A stretch of DNA of 64,000 nt, from IMG/VR virus record IMGVR_UViG_2875703104_000004. One strand, 5' to 3'. Under the pieces are notes generated by a model. That model had not been told where the DNA came from. It saw only the letters and a program-made list of their open reading frames with translations, and searched no databases. Below are positions 3,688-33,460 of the stretch, piece after piece; within the stretch, counting starts at the first letter, position 1, and each line of letters begins with the position of its first letter. Source of the stretch: a virus. Lineage: Duplodnaviria > Heunggongvirae > Uroviricota > Caudoviricetes. Position numbers and translations under genes: made by a program.

Positions 3688-4145
3688 ACAGAGTAACCGC
3701 GATTATCTCCGCTCTGGTTATCTGCATCATCGTCTGCCTGTCATGGGCTGTTAATCATTACCGTGATAACGCCATTACCTACAAAGCCCAGCGCGACAAA
3801 AATGCCAGAGAACTGACGCTGGCGAACGCGGCAATTACTGACATACAGATGCGTCAGCGTGATGTTGCTGCGCTCGATGCAAAATACACGAAGGAGTTAG
3901 CTGATGCGAAAGCTGAAAATGATGCTCTGCGTGATGATGTTGCCGCTGGTCGTCGTCGGTTGCACATCAAAGCAGTCTGTCAGTCAGTGCGTGAAGCCAC
4001 CACCGCCTCCGGCGTGGATAATGCAGCCTCCCCCCGACTGGCAGACACCGCTGAACGGGATTATTTCACCCTCAGAGAGAGGCTGATCACTATGCAAAAA
4101 CAACTGGAAGGAACCCAGAAGTATATTAATGAGCAGTGCAGATAG
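3684..4145 (+). CDS. rzpD: i-spanin Rz
   Basis: [40 protein letters not shown]...; N-terminal TMD plus coiled coil; ATGA overlap with endolysin stop. Confidence 0.85.
3904..4086 (+). CDS. rzoD: o-spanin Rz1 lipoprotein, embedded in +1 frame of Rz
   Basis: 60-aa ORF inside rzpD; lipobox LVVVGC; Pro-rich mature part. Confidence 0.85.
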
Positions 4146-4810: not shown

Positions 4811-5360
4811 GGAAGCTGTATTACAGAAAGTGCTACTACTGTATCCCGATGCGATGTATGTAATGTGAGTCAGATAATGGCACAGGATGTGGTGATGTGG
4901 CAGTCTGGAACACAGGATATATTGTCAGAATAAGACCCGTAGGAATAAAAATGAAAAGACGCCTTTTACTACTTTTTCTGTTATCTGTCCTGGCAGTGGG
5001 ATGCTCGCAGCAAAAAGCTGATGAGCCCCGGCAATTAGTGACGGTGTATCCACGATATCCGGAATATGCTGCAGCAAATTATATCAAGGGGCTGGTTGAG
5101 GTTAAGTTCGATATTGGTGCTGATGGGACTGTGACACGGATCGTTTTTCTCCGCTCAGAGCCTCATAATTTGTTTCGTGATGAAGTGGTGAAGGCCATGG
5201 CGAAATGGCGATTTGAAAAGAATCGCCCCTGTCAGGGAGTGAAGAGACAATTTATCTTTACGCCGTCACGTCCTTGATGCTTCCAGGTAGAGAGGGGCTG
5301 GAAGCAGGAGAAAAATGAAAGAGCCAGCGGTTATATTTTTGTCATGGCTGACGAGGAATG
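4733..5360. repeat. ~630-bp block duplicated at 25435-26060 (stf 3' end + lipoprotein gene)
   Basis: Near-identical apart from a T4/T5 homopolymer difference (one N in each copy); copy here ends at the N at 5361. Confidence 0.7.
4951..5277 (+). CDS. Prophage lipoprotein with TonB C-terminal-like domain (109 aa)
   Basis: ATG 4951 with RBS; signal peptide + lipobox LAVGC; motif YPRYPEYAAANYIKGLVEVKFDIGADGTVTRIVFLRSEPHNLFRDEVVKAMAKWRF resembles TonB_C. Confidence 0.6.
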   Translation: MKRRLLLLFLLSVLAVGCSQQKADEPRQLVTVYPRYPEYAAANYIKGLVEVKFDIGADGTVTRIVFLRSEPHNLFRDEVVKAMAKWRFEKNRPCQGVKRQFIFTPSRP

Positions 5361-5483
5361 NGGTAAACGACGCACTTGTGCCGGCACATAATAGCAAGCA
5401 CCATAATAGATCAGATTCGATTCTTGCTGTAAGTGATAATTATTCTCGTTTTCGGGTCCTTTCCGTCGATCCAACAGGTTACG

Positions 5484-5495
5484 GGGCGGCGACCT
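5484..5495 (+). other. Lambda-type cosN cohesive-end sequence GGGCGGCGACCT (cos region ~5440-5600)
   Basis: CAGGTTACG/GGGCGGCGACCT/CGCGG...TTTATGAAAATTTTT matches lambda cos junction, ~180 bp upstream of Nu1. Confidence 0.75.
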
Positions 5496-5671
5496 CGCGG
5501 TTTTTCACTATTTATGAAAATTTTTCAGGGAAAATCGTGTCGGTACTTCTCGAATATAACTTTTTGTTTTTTTTAATATTGCATCCGTAAAGGTCCGACA
5601 TGAAAGTGTCCGAAAATGCCTTTTTCTGGCGTTTTCATGTCGGGCCTTGTATTTGATAATGGGTTGTTTTC

Positions 5672-24730: not shown

Positions 24731-24745
24731 ATTTGTGGAGTGAAT

Positions 24746-25570
24746 ATGGCAGTACAGATTTCAGGCGTGCTGAAAGACGGTGCAGGAAAACCGATACAGA
24801 ACTGCACCATTCAGCTCAAAGCAAAACGTAACAGCACCACGGTTGTGGTGAACACGGTGGCCTCAGAAAATCCGGATGAAGCCGGACGTTACAGCATGGA
24901 TGTCGAGTATGGCCAGTACAGCGTTATCCTGCTGGTTGAAGGTTTTCCGCCTTCACATGCCGGGGCCATCACCGTGTATGAGGATTCTAAGCCGGGGACA
25001 TTGAATGATTTTCTGGGCGCTGCAACAGAAGATGATGTTCGTCCGGAGGCACTGTATCGTTTTGAAAAGATGGTGGAAGAGGTGGCACGCAACGCTGAAG
25101 CCGCCTCTCAGAGCGCAGCGGCAGCAAAGAAATCAGAAACAGCAGCGGCATCGTCCAGGAATGCGGCGAAAACATCAGAGACGAATGCAGGTAACAGCGC
25201 GAAAGCGGCAGCTTCTTCAAAAACAGCCGCACAAAACGCAGCAACAGCGGCAGAACGTTCAGAGACAAATGCCCGTGCGTCAGAAGAAGCCTCCGCAGAC
25301 AGTGAAGAGGCTTCCCGCCGTAATGCAGAGTCAGCCGCTGAAAATGCCGGAGTCGCCACCACAAAAGCGCGGGAGGCCGCAGCAGACGCAACAAAGGCCG
25401 GGCAGAAAAAGGATGAGGCTCTGTCGGCAGCGATAATTAAAAACGATGCACACCGGGTTTTTACCGCGTTAATGATTCGCGGGTTTATCCCGGTGCGATG
25501 GTGGAAGAAACAGGAAGCTGTATTACAGAAAGTGCTACTACTGTATCCCGATGCGATGTATGTAATGTGA
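24746..25570 (+). pseudogene. stf: Side tail fibre stf, N-terminal ~230 residues only
   Basis: MAVQISGVLKDGAGKPIQNCTIQLKAKRNSTTVVVNTV... as lambda Stf N-terminus; 3' end is the bor-cos conserved block. Confidence 0.75.
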
Positions 25571-25652
25571 GTCAGATAATGGCACAGGATGTGGTGATGT
25601 GGCAGTCTGGAACACAGGATATATTGTCAGAATAAGACCCGTAGGAATAAAA

Positions 25653-25979
25653 ATGAAAAGACGCCTTTTACTACTTTTTCTGTTATCTGTCCTGGCAGTG
25701 GGATGCTCGCAGCAAAAAGCTGATGAGCCCCGGCAATTAGTGACGGTGTATCCACGATATCCGGAATATGCTGCAGCAAATTATATCAAGGGGCTGGTTG
25801 AGGTTAAGTTCGATATTGGTGCTGATGGGACTGTGACACGGATCGTTTTTCTCCGCTCAGAGCCTCATAATTTGTTTCGTGATGAAGTGGTGAAGGCCAT
25901 GGCGAAATGGCGATTTGAAAAGAATCGCCCCTGTCAGGGAGTGAAGAGACAATTTATCTTTACGCCGTCACGTCCTTGA
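25653..25979 (+). CDS. Second copy of TonB C-terminal-like lipoprotein
   Basis: Protein identical to 4951-5277. Confidence 0.6.
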   Translation: MKRRLLLLFLLSVLAVGCSQQKADEPRQLVTVYPRYPEYAAANYIKGLVEVKFDIGADGTVTRIVFLRSEPHNLFRDEVVKAMAKWRFEKNRPCQGVKRQFIFTPSRP

Positions 25980-26101
25980 TGCTTCCAGGTAGAGAGGGGC
26001 TGGANGCAGGAGAAAAATGAAAGAGCCAGCGGTTATATTTTTGTCATGGCTGACGAGGAATGATGGAAGAAGGCGTTGTATGCCACACAACGCCTCACTG
26101 T

Positions 26102-26280
26102 TCATTTCTTCTTTTTCTCTGGTGGAACCCGATGAATAAGAGTTGCACTGGTTTCCGATGAGATGGCGATATACTCGGGCAAAGTATGCTGGCAGTTTTC
26201 CAACTGGTCAAAAATACCTGCTCTCGTCTGTTGCAATGCCTGCAGCATGCGGCGGCAATGCGCCTTGCTTTTACTAACCA
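26102..26280 (-). CDS. Hypothetical small basic protein (59 aa)
   Basis: Minus ATG 26280 with GAGGAAGGAAAG RBS; MVSKSKAHCRRMLQALQQTRAGIFDQLENCQHTLPEYIAISSETSATLIHRVPPEKKKK. Confidence 0.35.
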
Positions 26281-26342
26281 TCTTTCCTTCCTCTATCAGT
26301 CGCTGCGTGAACTCATCATGNAATACCAGGTAAATGCGGATG

Positions 26343-26592
26343 TTATCGGTTTTGGCTACGCAGCATAGTACAAAACGGACAGGTGCATCCCGGGACGGGG
26401 GAGGCGTCACATGTCCCTGTGATGGTTGTTCCGGGTAATGNACTGTGTGGGGCATAAAAATGTCCGATAATTTTACTTTCTACCGCAGTTAGTTGATTCG
26501 TTGGTCCTGGTAGCACATTGGGCGAGGATTTAAATGCCAGGCAACTGAAGGATGATGTNGCAAGGGAGATAGCGAGAATATTTCTGATTTTC
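26343..26592 (-). CDS. Hypothetical small secreted Cys-rich peptide (83-aa precursor)
   Basis: Minus ATG 26592; signal peptide MKIRNILAISLxTSSFSCLA; mature part has CDASPVPGCTCPFC; two N inside. Confidence 0.4.
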
Positions 26593-26607
26593 ATTTGATG
26601 ATGCCTC

Positions 26608-26909
26608 TGTGTGAAATGACGGTAAACGACGCACTTGTGCCGGCACATAATAGCAAGCACCATAATAGATCAGATTCGATTCTTGCTGTAAGTGATAATT
26701 ATTCTCGTTTTCGGGTCCTTTCCGTCGATCCAACAGGTTACGGGGCGGCGACCTCGCGGTGTGAAATGACGGTAAACGACGCACTTGTGCCGGCACATAA
26801 TAGCAAGCACCATAATAGATCAGATTCGATTCTTGCTGTAAGTGATAATTATTCTCGTTTTCGGGTCCTTTCCGTCGATCCAACAGGTTACGGGGCGGCG
26901 ACCTCGCGG
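26608..26909 (+). repeat. Tandem duplication (2 x ~151 bp) of the cosQ-cosN region
   Basis: Unit TGTGAAATGACGGTAAACGACGCACTTGTGCCGGCACATAAT...GGGGCGGCGACCTCGCGG occurs twice. Confidence 0.85.
26893..26904 (+). other. cosN cohesive-end sequence of copy 2 (duplicate at 26743-26754)
   Basis: GTTACG/GGGCGGCGACCT/CGCGGGTTTTCGCTATTTATGAAAATTTTT as lambda cos. Confidence 0.75.
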
Positions 26910-27073
26910 GTTTTCGCTATTTATGAAAATTTTTAGGGAAAAATCAGATCCGTTTTTCTTCTTTTTAACTGATTGATTATCAATAGAATTTTAAAAATAT
27001 AAAAGGATCTAACAAAGGCTGTTTTTGTTAGAAAACGCCATTTTCAGATCCTTTCTGGTTCCCGGGGGAGTGT

Positions 27074-27622
27074 ATGAACGTCAATAAGAAAAAACTGGCC
27101 GATATTTTTGGCGTTGATGTCAGGACCATCACCGCCTGGCAGAGTCAGGGGTTACCACTAGTTTCTGGTGGAGGGAAAGGGACTGAATCAGTTTTTGATA
27201 CAACTGCTGCCATTCAGTGGTATGCGCAGAGGGAAGCTGATATTAAAAACGAAAAACTCCGTAAAGAGATCGAGGATTTGAGGGCTGCCAGCGAATCAGA
27301 CCTTCAGCCCGGCACCATTGATTACGAACGTTACCGACTGACGAAGGCACAGGCCGATGCACAGGAGCTGAAAAATGCTCGTGAGGAAGGCCTTGTCCTC
27401 GAGACGGAGTTATTTACCTACATCTTTCAGCGAGTGGCACAGAATATATCAGGGATCCTTGTCCGTGTCCCTCAGACACTGCAGCGTAAATACCCTGATA
27501 TATCACCCGTACATCTTGATGCTGTGAAAACTGAAATCGCGAAAGCATCCGATGTGGCTTCTGAAGCCGGTGAGAATGTGCGCAGGTGGATTGATGATTT
27601 CAGACGAACTGAGGGCGGCTAA
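27074..27622 (+). CDS. nu1: Terminase small subunit Nu1 (copy 2)
   Basis: 182 aa, ~85% identical to copy 1 Nu1. Confidence 0.9.
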
Positions 27623-31417: not shown

Positions 31418-33460
31418 TCTTTCACACATTATTGCAGCAGCATTCAATGAACCGCTGCTTCTGGAGCCCGCCTATGCGCGGGTTTTCTTTTGCGCGCTCG
31501 GGCGCGAGATGGGGGCAGCAAGTCTTTCGGTACCGCAACAGCAGGTACAGCTTGATGCTCCCGGGATGCTGGCTGAAACGGACGAGTACATGGCCGGAGG
31601 TAAACGACCGGCCCGTGTTTACCGGGTGGTGAACGGTATTGCGGTACTGCCGGTGACCGGCACGCTGGTGCACCGGCTGGGGGGGATGCGGCCATTTTCC
31701 GGAATGACTGGCTATGACGGCATTGTCGCCTGTCTTCAGCAGGCAATGGCAGATAGCCAGGTGCGGGGCATACTGCTGGACATTGACAGTCCGGGCGGGC
31801 AGGCCGCCGGCGCGTTTGACTGCGTTGACATGATTTACCGCCTCCGGCAGCAGAAGCCGGTCTGGGCACTGTGCAATGACACGGCCTGTTCTGCAGCCAT
31901 GCTGCTGGCGTCGGCCTGCTCCCGACGGCTGGTTACCCAGACATCCCGTATCGGCTCCATTGGCGTGATGATGAGCCATGTCAGCTATGCCGGTCATCTG
32001 GCGCAGGCCGGTGTGGATATCACGCTGATTTACTCAGGGGCGCACAAGGTGGATGGCAATCAGNGGTGCACCGGCTGGGTGGTATGCGGCCATTTTCCGG
32101 AATGACAGGCTATGACGGCATTGTCGCCTGTCTTCAGCAGGCAATGGCGGATAGCCAGGTGCGGGGCGTACTGCTGGACATTGACAGTCCGGGCGGGCAG
32201 GCCGCCGGCGCGTTTGACTGCGCTGACATGATTTACCGCCTCCGTCAGCAGAAGCCGGTCTGGGCACTGTGCAATGACACGGCCTGTTCTGCAGCCATGC
32301 TGCTGGCGTCGGCCTGCTCCCGACGGCTGGTTACCCAGACATCCCGTATCGGCTCCATTGGCGTGATGATGAGCCATGTCAGCTATGCCGGTCATCTGGC
32401 GCAGGCCGGTGTGGATATCACGCTGATTTANNCNGGGGCGCACAAGGTGGATGGCAATCAGTTTGAAGCGTTGCCGGCAGAGGTTCGCCAGGACATGCAG
32501 CAGCGGATTGATGCGGCGCGCCGGATGTTTGCCGAAAAAGTGGCGATGTATACCGGTCTGTCTGTTGATGCCGTCACGGGAACAGAGGCTGCCGTTTTTG
32601 AAGGTCAGTCCGGCATTGAGGCCGGGCTGGCGGATGAATTAATCAATGCGTCGGATGCCATCAGTGTGATGGCCACGGCGCTGAACAGTAATGTCAGAGG
32701 AGGCACTATGCCGCAATTAACTGCAACGGAAGCCGCCGCTGCCGTTTTTGAAGGTCAGTCCGGCATTGAGGCCGGGCTGGCGGATGAATTAATCAATGCG
32801 TCGGATGCCATCAGTGTGATGGCCACGGCGCTGAACAGTAATGTCAGAGGAGGCACTATGCCGCAATTAACTGCAACGGAAGCCGCCGTGCAGGAGAACC
32901 AGCGAGTGATGGGGATCCTGACATGCCAGGAAGCGAAAGGACGTGAACAGCTTGCCACGATGCTGGCAGGGCAACAGGGCATGAGCGTTGAACAGGCCCG
33001 GGCGATTCTGGCCGCGGCGGCACCGCAGCAGCCGGTGGCATCCGCACAGAGTGAAGCCGATCGCATTATGGCGTGTGAAGAAGCGAACGGTCGTGAACAA
33101 CTGGCAGCAACGCTGGCGGCGATGCCGGAGAGGACGGTGGAAAAAGCCCGCCCGATCCTGGCTGCTTCACCGCAGGCGAATGCCGGGCCCTCACTTCGTG
33201 ATCAGATCATGGCACTGGATGAGGCAAAAGGGGCTGAGGCGCAGGCTGAACAGCTGGCTGCCTGCCCGGGAATGACTGTGGAGAGCGCCCGGGCTGTGCT
33301 GGCTGCGGGATCAGGTAAGGCAGAACCGGTCTCTGCATCCACAACCGCCCTGTTTGAACATTTCATGGCGAACCATTCACCGGCTGCGGTCCAGGGGGGC
33401 GTGTCACAGGCGTCAGAAGACGGTGATGCGGACGTGAAAATGCTCATGGCCATGCCATGA
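31407..33460 (+). pseudogene. C: Capsid protease/scaffold C (copy 2), interrupted by N-flanked ~397-bp duplication and an in-frame 150-bp tandem duplication
   Basis: 31666-32062 repeated at 32065-32460 (N at 32063; second copy carries copy-1 SNPs); 32588-32737 repeated at 32738-32887. Confidence 0.8.

What the first reader, a model, noticed from the sequence alone, without database searches (positions are those of the whole stretch)
26102..26592. Two small minus-strand genes beside cos: a Cys-rich secreted peptide and a small basic protein
Between the lipoprotein gene and cos, a minus-strand ORF encodes a signal peptide followed by a short mature peptide with four cysteines (CDASPVPGCTCPFC), then a 59-aa basic protein with a good RBS. 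This resembles small secreted toxin or bacteriocin-like modules, but the region has three N and only one copy, so the reading frames are uncertain.
Basis: partly seen in the sequence, partly recalled or inferred. Interest (0 to 1): 0.5.

Follow-up and report, generated by a model that had tools for sequence, protein, structure and literature searches.

The report
Unannotated secreted four-cysteine prophage protein
Beside the packaging site of a phage-21-type prophage lies a real but almost never annotated gene for a small exported four-cysteine protein whose relatives in other enteric bacteria sit in zinc-starvation gene islands, so it is more likely a metal-related cargo gene than a toxin; the second small ORF next to it remains unproven.

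Summary
Window 25600-26760 is the right end of E. coli phage 21, identical except for four N. These N fall on known SNPs, so the reading frames are intact.

ORF-A (26343-26594, minus strand, 83 aa) is a genuine gene:
- It has same-length homologs at 25-77% identity across Enterobacterales.
- dN/dS is 0.06-0.23.
- The family shows a conserved A-x-A|F signal-peptidase site and an invariant C-x7-C-x-C-x2-C cluster.
- It has no Pfam, NCBIfam, PHROG, PADLOC or PDB match.
- It is unannotated in the phage 21 record and in the RefSeq E. coli records inspected, although about 23% of complete E. coli genomes carry the region.

Non-phage homologs recur in zinc-starvation contexts. Neighbours include COG0523/ZigA, AztCD, DksA2/FolE2 paralogs, a P1B ATPase and pliG. 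Several homologs have near-perfect Zur boxes 36-107 nt upstream. My best reading is a periplasmic, probably zinc-related mini-protein carried as a prophage moron. I found no support for a toxin or bacteriocin.

ORF-B (26102-26281, 59 aa) is an orphan confined to this module. It stays open in all seven alleles compared and varies less than the flanking DNA. Its synonymous excess is not significant, so its coding status is equivocal. The plus-strand ORF that RefSeq usually annotates here acquires stop codons in other alleles and is probably spurious.

The parts
26343..26594 (-). ORF-A coding sequence: 83-aa precursor including the stop codon, giving a 63-aa mature secreted four-Cys protein
   Evidence: ORF. 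Same-length homologs at 25-77% identity in Salmonella, Citrobacter, Klebsiella, Buttiauxella, Enterobacter, Serratia and Pantoea. pN 0.11-0.30 against pS 0.47-0.90, and dN/dS 0.06-0.23. 7 synonymous: 3 non-synonymous changes among E. coli alleles, p = 0.003.
26535..26594 (-). Signal peptide, residues 1-20 (MKIRNILAISLATSSFSCLA), with predicted SPase I cleavage between Ala20 and Phe21
   Evidence: The family alignment has a K/R-rich N-terminus and a hydrophobic core. Ala20 and Phe21 are at least 90% conserved, with the motif A-[LMWY]-A|F-[QK] in distant members. Cys18 is absent from most distant members, which argues against a lipobox. SignalP was not run.
26370..26411 (-). Cysteine cluster C62-x7-C70-x-C72-x2-C75 (CDASPVPGCTCPFC)
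   Evidence: C62, G69, C70 and C72 are invariant. C75, P66, G60, L78 and R79 are at least 90% conserved across 26 family members.
26604..26608 (-). Shine-Dalgarno AGAGG, 9 nt upstream of the ORF-A ATG
   Evidence: Read directly from the sequence.
26647..26655 (-). Candidate extended -10 promoter element TGCTATTAT for leftward transcription of ORF-A (inferred only)
   Evidence: Sequence match only. It is unchanged in the 93.8% variant L016. The tool's two-hexamer scan did not call a promoter here.
26102..26281 (-). ORF-B: 59-aa basic orphan ORF, MVSKSKAHCRRMLQ...PPEKKKK, with equivocal coding status
   Evidence: Matches phrog_4843. Annotated as WP_000253883.1 in some RefSeq genomes. Open in all 7 alleles. 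4 synonymous: 4 non-synonymous changes, p = 0.065. Variation density 4.5% against 11.6% in flanking non-coding DNA, p = 0.009. No homolog below about 85% identity, and none beside any other ORF-A homolog.
26282..26293 (-). Shine-Dalgarno region GAGGAAGGAAAG directly upstream of the ORF-B ATG
   Evidence: Read directly from the sequence.
26070..26096 (.). 12-bp G+C-rich hairpin between the convergent ORF-B and the TonB_C lipoprotein gene. It is the likely 3' end of the leftward ORF-A(/B) transcript, although the U-tract is poor.
   Evidence: RNA fold -23.2 kcal/mol, z = -3.5, with 0 of 200 shuffles as stable. No hairpin lies between ORF-A and ORF-B.
26186..26368 (+). Antisense 60-aa ORF annotated in the phage 21 record (CPT_21_75) and in RefSeq (WP_000881610.1). 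Probably not a gene.
   Evidence: Annotations. It gains stop codons in alleles L037/L038 (E>*) and L016 (Q>*, C>*). 10 of 11 substitutions are non-synonymous or nonsense.
26692..26754 (+). cos region of phage 21 type: degenerate cos-proximal palindrome (26692-26706), cosQ GGTCCTT (26714-20) and cohesive end GGGCGGCGACCT (26743-54)
   Evidence: Identity to the phage 21 right end, with the cosQ annotation in OL657228. The lambda-type palindrome is seen in HK630.
26759..26908 (+). Exact 150-bp tandem duplicate of 26609-26758, giving a second cos copy. It is an artefact or peculiarity of this window, not part of the natural module.
   Evidence: 150/150 identical. Absent from phage 21 and PhiR57_1.
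25654..25979 (+). Neighbouring TonB C-terminal-domain lipoprotein gene, convergent with ORF-B
   Evidence: PF03544 E = 7e-13 and TIGR01352. Annotated 'TonB family protein' WP_000830178.1.

Best explanation
ORF-A is a genuine lysogenic-conversion ('moron') gene of phage-21-type lambdoid prophages.

How it is made (inferred):
- It is transcribed leftward, against the late operon, from the cos-proximal spacer.
- Transcription probably runs through ORF-B to the hairpin at 26070-26096.
- The 83-aa precursor is exported by Sec and cut by signal peptidase I after Ala20.
- This releases a 63-aa periplasmic (or released) mini-protein.
- Its only invariant feature is the C-terminal cluster C-x7-C-x-C-x2-C, followed by LR.

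What is shown: the protein belongs to a previously undescribed family restricted to Enterobacterales. Its chromosomal and plasmid members lie in, and often carry operators of, the Zur zinc-starvation regulon.

What I infer: the mature protein acts in the periplasm in metal handling, most probably zinc. The four cysteines would serve either as a thiolate metal site or as two disulfides that hold a small binding fold. The prophage copy would help lysogens under host-imposed metal limitation. It sits alongside iss/bor and the TonB_C lipoprotein in the same cargo region.

ORF-B may be a second cistron encoding a 59-aa basic helical protein, but this is unproven.
For: Gene reality:
- 22 database homologs at 55-98% identity, with the same length of 82-84 aa in four genera.
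- An exhaustive profile search finds about 30 clusters, nearly all 79-86 aa.
- Synonymous sites are saturated while pN is 0.11-0.30, and dN/dS is 0.06-0.23.
- 7 synonymous: 3 non-synonymous changes among E. coli alleles, p = 0.003.

Export:
- The n- and h-regions are conserved, and A-x-A|F is at least 90% conserved.

Zinc link from gene neighbours:
- Pantoea: the homolog lies between dksA-like/FolE2/hexapeptide/ThrRS paralogs and COG0523, a Fur-family gene and a CysRS paralog.
- An unnamed enterobacterium: cobW/COG0523, then the homolog 143 bp downstream.
- K. pneumoniae: AztD (459 bits, cutoff 400), AztC, a dihydroorotase and a HemB paralog.
- Enterobacter: 62 bp downstream of a P1B heavy-metal ATPase.
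- Klebsiella IncF plasmids (66 of the 73 plasmid hits are Klebsiella): beside zigA, a second COG0523 gene and a Fur-family repressor.
- Salmonella diarizonae and arizonae: 93 bp downstream of a pliG-like gene. pliG is an experimentally shown Zur target in E. coli (PMC4219657).

Zinc link from operators:
- Matches to the Zur core TGTTATAWTATAACA lie at -36 (14/15), -89 (14/15), -107 (14/15) and -39 (12/15) from homolog start codons.
- The 123.8 kb of fetched loci hold only 14 sites scoring at least 12/15. Most of the others precede cobW, the azt operon or pliG, which serves as a positive control. None occurs in the 64-kb window.

Moron character:
- ORF-A runs opposite to the late genes.
- It is absent from lambda-type HK630 at the same place.
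- It is present with different terminases.
- The region is carried by 1232 of 5426 complete E. coli genomes.
Against: - The phage-21 copy has no Zur core upstream, and the TA464-type copy also lacks one. Zinc-responsive expression of this particular gene is therefore not indicated.
- Its apparent Fur-like box is only the conserved lambdoid cos-proximal palindrome.
- Cysteine thiolate metal sites are unusual in the oxidising periplasm. The four Cys may simply form disulfides.
- AlphaFold gave no confident fold (pLDDT 47), and there is no homology to any metal-binding protein.
- Some contexts are not metal related: Salmonella ICE with DUF1090, and a K. variicola mobile element.
- Gene neighbourhood is indirect evidence.
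- The promoter is only a sequence match.
Confidence: 0.55

Rival explanations
1. ORF-A is a Zur-associated periplasmic mini-protein that does not bind metal. In this reading it is a disulfide-knotted inhibitor or protective factor (as PliG is for lysozyme), or a small thiol-disulfide redox protein using its C-P-[FY]-C motif.
For: - Four Cys in an exported protein are normally oxidised to two disulfides.
- The last two Cys form C-P-F-C, C-P-Y-C or C-A-F-C, which resembles glutaredoxin/DsbA-type CxxC motifs.
- In Salmonella the gene follows pliG, a Zur-regulated inhibitor with no metal role.
- His50 is not conserved in distant members.
Against: - No thioredoxin fold is possible in 63 aa.
- There is no similarity to any inhibitor family.
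- The neighbours are overwhelmingly metal-trafficking genes rather than envelope-defence genes.
Confidence: 0.2
2. ORF-A would be a Sec-exported pre-pro toxin, enterotoxin or bacteriocin-like peptide (STa/STb-like architecture), with ORF-B as a partner such as an immunity or regulator protein.
For: - The architecture is a signal peptide followed by a Cys-rich C-terminus, and the size is similar to the STb precursor (71 aa, 4 Cys; from my own knowledge).
- It lies in a prophage cargo region beside the virulence-associated iss.
Against: - No Pfam, NCBIfam, PHROG or PADLOC hit to any toxin or bacteriocin family.
- The whole mature region, not only the C-terminus, is conserved.
- Homologs sit singly in housekeeping zinc islands without exporter or immunity genes.
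- ORF-B never accompanies homologs.
Confidence: 0.06
3. ORF-B is not translated. In this reading the 26102-26342 stretch is the 3' untranslated region or terminator region of the ORF-A mRNA, and its lower variability reflects RNA-level or recombination effects.
For: - ORF-B has no homolog outside this module and none below about 85% identity.
- 43% of shuffles give an ORF this long.
- The synonymous excess is not significant (4:4, p = 0.065).
- In L016 the identical block at 541-686 looks like a recombination tract.
- Annotators disagree on strand and frame.
Against: - The Shine-Dalgarno is strong and well spaced.
- The ORF is intact in 7 of 7 alleles, while the antisense ORF collects three stop codons.
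- Variation density equals that of ORF-A and is 2.6-fold below the flanks, p = 0.009.
Confidence: 0.45
4. ORF-A is an outer-membrane lipoprotein of the Cor/Llp superinfection-exclusion type that blocks a TonB-dependent receptor.
For: - Cys18 lies 17 residues from the N-terminus, in a sequence that fits the loose PROSITE lipobox rule (own knowledge).
- Cys18 is invariant among the close homologs.
- The neighbour is a TonB_C lipoprotein, and one homolog lies next to fecIR and a TonB-dependent receptor.
Against: - Most distant family members lack Cys at this position and instead have a canonical A-x-A|F site.
- Positions -3 and -2 (S, F) are poor lipobox residues.
- There is no similarity to Cor or Llp families in PHROGs.
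Confidence: 0.04

Closest known systems
ZinT (YodA), the Zur-regulated periplasmic zinc-binding accessory protein of enterobacteria
   Same: Both are Sec-exported and periplasmic. Both belong to, or are associated with, the Zur zinc-starvation response. Both are accessory rather than core transporter components.
   Different: There is no sequence similarity. ZinT is about 200 aa, has a lipocalin-like fold and uses His ligands. ORF-A is 63 aa mature with four Cys. Metal binding by ORF-A is untested, and the phage copy has no Zur box.
PliG (YcgK), the Zur-regulated periplasmic lysozyme inhibitor
   Same: Both are small exported proteins under Zur control with no obvious zinc chemistry. In Salmonella diarizonae and arizonae the ORF-A homolog lies 93 bp downstream of the pliG-like gene and its Zur box.
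   Different: The sequence is unrelated, and PliG is about 110 aa mature without the Cys cluster.
Bor/Iss and Lom, the classical lambdoid 'moron' genes
   Same: Both are small exported proteins encoded against the direction of late transcription, in the Rz-to-cos cargo region of lambdoid prophages. Their presence varies among related phages. ORF-A shares the region with iss in E. coli.
   Different: Bor/Iss are lipoproteins of a known family (serum resistance). ORF-A is SPase I-type, belongs to an undescribed family, and also has chromosomal and plasmid homologs outside phages.
Heat-stable enterotoxin STb precursor (71 aa, Sec signal, 4 Cys)
   Same: The overall size, the Sec signal and the four cysteines in the exported part are shared.
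   Different: There is no homology. The Cys spacing differs. ORF-A homologs are single genes in zinc islands of non-pathogens such as Pantoea, Buttiauxella and Serratia.
DUF3950 (PF13132) small proteins near cos/Nu1 in E. coli prophages, as a comparison for ORF-B
   Same: Both are about 60 aa, basic, and occupy the same position downstream of an ORF-A homolog in the TA464-type prophage.
   Different: ORF-B has no Pfam hit, and BLASTP finds no alignment.

Membership tests
Sec/SPase I-exported protein | Positively charged n-region, hydrophobic h-region of 10-15 residues, small residues at -3 and -1 (A-x-A) | tested here: met
   The signal is MK(I/V)(R/K) followed by a hydrophobic core. Ala20 (-1) and Phe21 (+1) are at least 90% conserved. 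Position -3 is A, C, S or V across 26 members. SignalP itself was not available.
Bacterial lipoprotein (SPase II) | Invariant Cys at +1 of a lipobox [LVI][ASTVI][GAS]C | tested here: not met
   Cys18 is present only in the phage-type clade. Most distant members have A, P, S or N there. Positions -3 and -2 are S and F in the window copy.
Zur regulon | Zur operator (core TGTTATAWTATAACA / RNNNYxxxRNNNY) overlapping the promoter | tested here: inconclusive
   The feature is met for homologs in Buttiauxella (-36), K. pneumoniae (-107), the P0058 host (-89) and Serratia (-39, weaker). It is met through the upstream pliG-like gene in Salmonella. It is not met for the window/phage 21 copy or the TA464-type copy.
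Zur regulon | Derepression on zinc depletion or in a zur mutant | not testable with these tools
   No expression data exist for this mostly unannotated gene. No paper in the searched library mentions the sequence.
Zinc-binding protein | Demonstrable metal ligand set or fold | tested here: inconclusive
   Four invariant or near-invariant Cys are present. The AlphaFold model has pLDDT 47, and there is no PDB or Pfam relative.
Heat-stable enterotoxins / class II microcins / bacteriocins | Homology to STa/STb or microcin families; a double-glycine leader with a dedicated ABC exporter and an immunity gene | tested here: not met
   No Pfam, NCBIfam, PHROG or PADLOC hit. The signal is Sec-type. No exporter or immunity genes appear in any of about 13 contexts.
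Phage moron | A non-essential insert between conserved modules, with variable presence among related phages, its own orientation, and terminator or promoter signals | tested here: met
   ORF-A is absent at the same place in HK630/lambda. It is present with two different terminase types. It runs opposite to the late genes, and a hairpin lies at its 3' end. Promoter activity was not tested.
DUF3950 (for ORF-B) | Match to PF13132 | tested here: not met
   There is no Pfam hit at E <= 1. BLASTP against the DUF3950 protein of L011 gives no alignment.

The most novel reading that the evidence does not exclude
The ORF-A family is a new class of Zur-controlled periplasmic Cys4 mini-proteins that capture or hand over zinc (a protein 'zincophore' or chaperone for ZnuA/AztC-type importers). 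In this reading, lambdoid prophages and Klebsiella IncF plasmids have captured it as cargo that improves survival of ExPEC and Klebsiella under host nutritional immunity. The gene is present in about a quarter of E. coli genomes but is almost never annotated.
Probability: 0.3. Interest if true: 0.7.

Novelty: new variant of a known kind. Interest (0 to 1): 0.5.

Why it matters
- A real gene for an exported protein is missing from the curated phage 21 record and from the RefSeq annotations inspected. About 23% of complete E. coli genomes carry the region, including ST131, Nissle 1917, NRG857C and APEC strains. RefSeq usually annotates a probably spurious antisense ORF nearby instead.
- The family has no Pfam domain, no solved structure, and no literature that I could find.
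- Comparative genomics places the family in the zinc-starvation response of several Enterobacterales. This would add a new and easily testable member to a small, well-studied regulon.
- It also suggests that prophages and virulence-type plasmids traffic metal-homeostasis accessories alongside iss/bor.
- For the scan itself, the case shows that N in this window mark collapsed allelic SNPs, not frame-breaking errors.

Tried and rejected
1. Pfam, NCBIfam, PHROGs and PADLOC scans of ORF-A and of 26 family members gave no family. ORF-B hits only the anonymous phrog_4843, and its antisense ORF hits phrog_3744.
2. A profile search of PDB sequences found nothing at E <= 10.
3. AlphaFold2 of ORF-A with a 15-sequence alignment gave pLDDT 47, so I ran no fold search. 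ORF-B as a single sequence gave one long helix at pLDDT 75, which is uninformative.
4. Fur regulation of the phage copy was rejected. The GAGAATAATTATCAC element 36 nt from cosQ is the degenerate form of a palindrome found next to cosQ in lambda-type phages that lack ORF-A (TGATAATCATTATCA in HK630).
5. The lipoprotein / Cor-Llp idea was rejected on the family alignment.
6. The 117-aa reading of ORF-B was rejected. In the stretch that overlaps ORF-A, substitutions are synonymous in the ORF-A frame and non-synonymous in the 117-aa frame.
7. An ORF-B relationship to DUF3950 was rejected.
8. An Rfam scan of 25500-27200 gave only a chance miRNA hit at E = 0.94.
9. Searches of literature full text for peptide strings from ORF-A gave 0 papers. 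The phage 21 genome announcement says only that its morons differ from lambda's. The Klebsiella zinc papers do not mention the gene.
10. A scan of species-representative genomes with peptide patterns found only 3 loci. The profile search was much more productive.
Full report
WHAT IS IN THE SEQUENCE

Window 25600-26760 is the right end of Escherichia coli phage 21 (OL657228). It also matches PhiR57_1, ev017, Perceval and related phages. The alignment is base-for-base identical except for four N, each a one-base substitution.

- ORF-A runs from the ATG at 26594 to the stop at 26343-26345. It encodes 83 aa, with an AGAGG Shine-Dalgarno 9 nt upstream.
- ORF-B runs from the ATG at 26281 to the stop at 26102-26104. 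It encodes 59 aa with pI 9.7, directly preceded by GAGGAAGGAAAG.

The neighbours are also as described.
- To the left is a lipoprotein gene at 25654-25979 carrying a TonB C-terminal domain.
- To the right is cos, with cosQ at 26714-26720 and the cohesive end at 26743-26754, followed by Nu1 and A.

THE N POSITIONS

The N lie at 26005, 26321, 26441 and 26559. I compared seven natural alleles of this module. These four positions are exactly the four SNPs that separate the phage-21 allele from the allele of E. coli AR_0006 (L038).

The N are therefore ambiguity calls from two collapsed alleles, not sequencing damage. No frame is affected.
- ORF-A residue 12 is Ala in both alleles.
- Residue 52 is Thr or Ala.
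- Position 26321 lies in the spacer between the two ORFs.

IS IT MORE THAN CHANCE?

ORF length alone is not evidence. 43% of shuffles of 25980-26700 contain an ATG-ORF of at least 59 aa, and 12% contain one of at least 83 aa. The window holds 228 ATG-ORFs of at least 59 aa.

Annotators also disagree on this region.
- The curated phage 21 record calls two plus-strand ORFs (40 and 60 aa) and neither minus-strand ORF.
- PhiR57_1 calls the 117-aa extended version of ORF-B and another ORF.
- RefSeq/PGAP calls the plus-strand 60-aa ORF in most genomes and ORF-B in some.
- None of the inspected annotated records calls ORF-A.

ORF-A IS A REAL GENE

A search of 5.8 billion proteins found 22 relatives. 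Twelve or more have 82-84 aa at 55-77% identity, from Salmonella enterica subspecies, Citrobacter, Klebsiella and a divergent E. coli prophage. An exhaustive profile search of 1.84 billion cluster representatives found about 30 clusters. Nearly all are 79-86 aa and all are from Enterobacterales: Enterobacter, Klebsiella, Salmonella, Serratia, Pantoea and Buttiauxella. Every one is named 'hypothetical'.

Selection acts on the ORF-A frame.
- Between seven codon-aligned homologs, synonymous sites are near saturation (pS 0.47-0.90).
- Non-synonymous divergence is much lower (pN 0.11-0.30).
- dN/dS is 0.06-0.23 wherever it can be computed.
- Among E. coli alleles, ORF-A shows 7 synonymous and 3 non-synonymous changes (p = 0.003).
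- Its variation density is 4.0%, against 11.6% in flanking non-coding DNA (p = 0.001).

ANATOMY OF THE ORF-A PROTEIN

The family alignment shows these features:
- a K/R-rich N-terminus and a hydrophobic core;
- a cleavage motif with Ala20 and Phe21 at least 90% conserved (A-[LMWY]-A|F-[QK] in distant members);
- a moderately conserved E..I...FY..H segment;
- an invariant C-terminal cluster G-x-C62-x3-P-x2-G-C70-x-C72-x2-C75-x2-L-R.

Cys18 in the signal peptide made me consider a lipoprotein. Most distant members lack that Cys, so the family is of SPase I type. The mature protein is 63 aa (6.65 kDa, pI 8.5) with four Cys.

No Pfam, NCBIfam, PHROG, PADLOC or PDB relative exists. AlphaFold2 gave no confident model (pLDDT 47).

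WHAT THE ORF-A FAMILY IS ASSOCIATED WITH

I examined about 13 independent genomic contexts. Metal-related neighbours were found in nine of them:
- Pantoea: the homolog sits inside a typical zinc-sparing island. On one side are DksA-like, FolE2-type GTP cyclohydrolase, hexapeptide-repeat and ThrRS paralogs. On the other are COG0523, a Fur-family regulator and a CysRS paralog.
- An unnamed enterobacterium (P0058): it lies 143 bp downstream of a cobW/COG0523 gene.
- K. pneumoniae chromosome: the neighbours are AztD (NF038015, 459 bits against a cutoff of 400), AztC, an ABC permease and ATPase, a dihydroorotase and a porphobilinogen-synthase paralog.
- Enterobacter: it lies 62 bp downstream of a CPC-motif P1B heavy-metal ATPase.
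- Klebsiella IncF plasmids (66 of the 73 plasmid hits are Klebsiella; the gene is unannotated in the Klebsiella rows inspected): it lies beside zigA, a second COG0523 gene and a Fur-family repressor. A degenerate cos sequence is still visible upstream, so this copy derives from a phage-type copy.
- Salmonella diarizonae and arizonae: it lies 93 bp downstream of a pliG-like gene. pliG is an experimentally established Zur target in E. coli (PMC4219657).
- Serratia: it is divergent from a NikA-like binding protein of family TIGR04028.
- Citrobacter: it is divergent from fecI-fecR and a TonB-dependent receptor.

Two contexts have no metal link: a Salmonella ICE with DUF1090, and a K. variicola mobile element.

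I then scanned for the Zur-box core TGTTATAWTATAACA.
- Matches of 14/15 lie at -36 (Buttiauxella), -89 (P0058 host) and -107 (K. pneumoniae) from the homolog start codons. A 12/15 match lies at -39 (Serratia).
- The 123.8 kb of fetched loci hold only 14 sites scoring at least 12/15. Most of the rest precede cobW, the azt operon or pliG. This serves as a positive control for the motif.
- The 64-kb window has none.

The family-level link to the Zur zinc-starvation response is therefore well supported by comparative evidence, but it has not been shown experimentally.

THE PHAGE COPY

The phage-21 copy has no Zur core. The Fur-like element GAGAATAATTATCAC near cosQ is the degenerate form of a palindrome that lies next to cosQ in lambda-type phages lacking ORF-A. 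It reads TGATAATCATTATCA in HK630 and TGATAATAATTATCA in the TA464-type prophage. It therefore says nothing about ORF-A regulation.

Several features support ORF-A as a moron.
- A candidate extended -10 (TGCTATTAT, 26647-26655) lies about 50 nt upstream of the ATG. This is sequence only.
- No hairpin separates ORF-A from ORF-B.
- A 12-bp G+C-rich hairpin follows ORF-B at 26070-26096 (-23.2 kcal/mol, z = -3.5).
- The gene runs against late transcription.
- It is absent from HK630/lambda at this position.
- It is linked to two different terminase types.
- In E. coli it sits in the Rz-iss/bor-TonB_C-cos cargo region.

The 630-bp ORF-A/ORF-B segment is present in 1232 of 5426 complete E. coli genomes, at 99% identity or more in 1202 of them. 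Carriers include NRG857C, ST131 isolates and APEC strains, and Nissle 1917 by the flanking match.

ORF-B

ORF-B occurs only in this module (tblastn against all fetched loci). All database relatives are at least about 85% identical or are frameshift fusions.

The 117-aa extended reading is not under selection. Where it overlaps ORF-A, changes are synonymous for ORF-A and non-synonymous for the 117-aa frame.

Evidence in favour of the 59-aa ORF:
- a strong ribosome-binding site;
- an intact frame in all seven alleles;
- variation density of 4.5% against 11.6% in the flanks (p = 0.009).

Evidence against:
- 4 synonymous and 4 non-synonymous changes is not a significant excess (p = 0.065);
- most of the variation comes from one mosaic allele (L016).

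ORF-B has no Pfam hit and no similarity to the DUF3950 protein that occupies the equivalent place in the TA464-type prophage. I put the chance that ORF-B is translated at roughly one half.

The plus-strand 60-aa ORF (WP_000881610.1, CPT_21_75) is very probably an annotation artefact. It gains a stop codon in the common L037/L038 allele and two more in L016. Ten of its 11 substitutions are non-synonymous or nonsense.

MECHANISM: SHOWN VERSUS INFERRED

Shown by computation:
- ORF-A is under purifying selection.
- It carries a conserved Sec/SPase I signal and an invariant four-Cys cluster.
- Its family is restricted to Enterobacterales.
- Family members recur next to zinc-homeostasis genes and behind Zur-box-like operators.

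Inferred:
- The protein is exported, and its signal peptide is cleaved after Ala20.
- It has a periplasmic role in zinc (metal) handling. The Cys cluster would act either as the ligand set or as two structural disulfides.
- It is transcribed leftward from the cos-proximal spacer to the hairpin.
- It benefits lysogens under metal limitation.

The main rival keeps the Zur association but denies metal binding. In that reading the protein is a disulfide-knotted inhibitor or a redox mini-protein with a CP[FY]C motif. The toxin/bacteriocin reading has no positive evidence.

NOVELTY AND VERDICT

I found no literature on the family. Peptide-string searches returned no papers, and the phage 21 and Klebsiella zinc papers do not mention it.

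This is a new protein family of a familiar kind: a small exported prophage cargo protein and a candidate accessory of the Zur regulon. I score interest at 0.5. It would be higher if zinc binding and Zur control are confirmed.

Noticed in passing
window 26005, 26321, 26441, 26559: All four N coincide with the four SNPs between the phage-21 allele and the E. coli AR_0006-type allele of this module. The window therefore looks like a consensus of two collapsed near-identical prophage copies or strains. The window has 58 N in all.
   Followed up: yes
window 26609-26758 and 26759-26908: An exact 150-bp tandem duplication gives two cos sites. It is absent from phage 21 and PhiR57_1. Other repeats with 150-bp spacing lie at 32576/32726 and 39852/40002. 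Repeats with 116-, 162-, 398- and 584-bp spacing occur elsewhere, which suggests assembly artefacts.
   Followed up: partly
window 4950-5500: A second copy of the TonB_C lipoprotein gene to cos stretch joins 'gacgaggaatg' directly to 'ggtaaacgacgc'. It lacks the ~570-bp segment that holds ORF-A and ORF-B. In the top-matching E. coli genomes listed (Nissle 1917, ATCC 11775 and others) the match to this copy spans 1358 bp for the 801-base query, consistent with their carrying the segment.
   Followed up: partly
window ~25420-25433 and the window as a whole: A side-tail-fibre N-terminal ORF (24740-25570) runs straight into the phage-21 right-end DNA. None of 5426 E. coli genomes has this junction. 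The window holds three successive lambdoid late-gene sets (about 5.7-25.4, 27-44 and 45.8-64 kb) with several structural genes split into two ORFs. It is probably a chimeric or mis-assembled contig.
   Followed up: partly
L023 (HK630) about 607-622; L011 about 3865-3880; window 26692-26706: Lambda-type phages carry a 15-bp palindrome a few bases from cosQ that is a perfect 7-1-7 Fur-box core (TGATAATCATTATCA). It is conserved in the TA464-type prophage and degenerate in phage 21. I did not explore whether it has any role in packaging or Fur binding.
   Followed up: no
window 26186-26368 (+): The 60-aa 'hypothetical protein' WP_000881610.1, annotated by PGAP in the inspected genomes that carry the phage-21 allele, and CPT_21_75 of the phage 21 record, acquire stop codons in other alleles. 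They are probably spurious. In those alleles PGAP switches to ORF-B (WP_000253883.1).
   Followed up: yes
window 25654-25979 (+), and 4953-5278: A 108-aa lipoprotein consists of a lipobox (LAVGC) plus a TonB C-terminal domain. It is widespread in E. coli prophages between iss/bor and cos. PHROGs files it under 'Rz-like spanin'. A lipid-anchored TonB_C domain could interfere with TonB-box interactions, but its function is unknown.
   Followed up: no
L011 4345-4476; L005 4814-4948: A conserved 44-aa lipoprotein ORF with two further Cys (MKYFALISALLLSAC...PSGKSASGECR) lies downstream of ORF-A homologs in the E. coli TA464-type prophage and in Salmonella diarizonae and arizonae. It is 77% identical between the two and was not among the genes called on the E. 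coli contig.
   Followed up: no
proteins P0062, P0064 (611-627 aa): Long, asparagine-rich, eukaryote-like proteins carry 4-5 repeats of P[IL]PGCNCPKCT.LRN. This matches the C-terminal PGCxCPxCxxLR motif of the ORF-A family (E = 1e-8 to 3e-7). Convergence or a shared mini-motif are both possible.
   Followed up: no
window ~26395-26402 (C/G run inside ORF-A); proteins P0030, P0038, P0003, P0006: Some E. coli records have frameshifts at the CCCCC run. These fuse the ORF-A N-terminus to the out-of-frame 117-aa reading and remove the Cys cluster. They could be homopolymer sequencing errors or real pseudogenisation in some lineages.
   Followed up: no
L014 3961-3978; L011 about 3943-3960: Perfect 7-4-7 palindromes lie 40-55 nt upstream of the ORF-A homologs. 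They read GATATGT-TATT-ACATATC in Citrobacter and GTTACGT-GTTA-ACGTAAC in the TA464-type prophage. The spacing differs from the canonical Zur box, and any operator identity is unknown.
   Followed up: no
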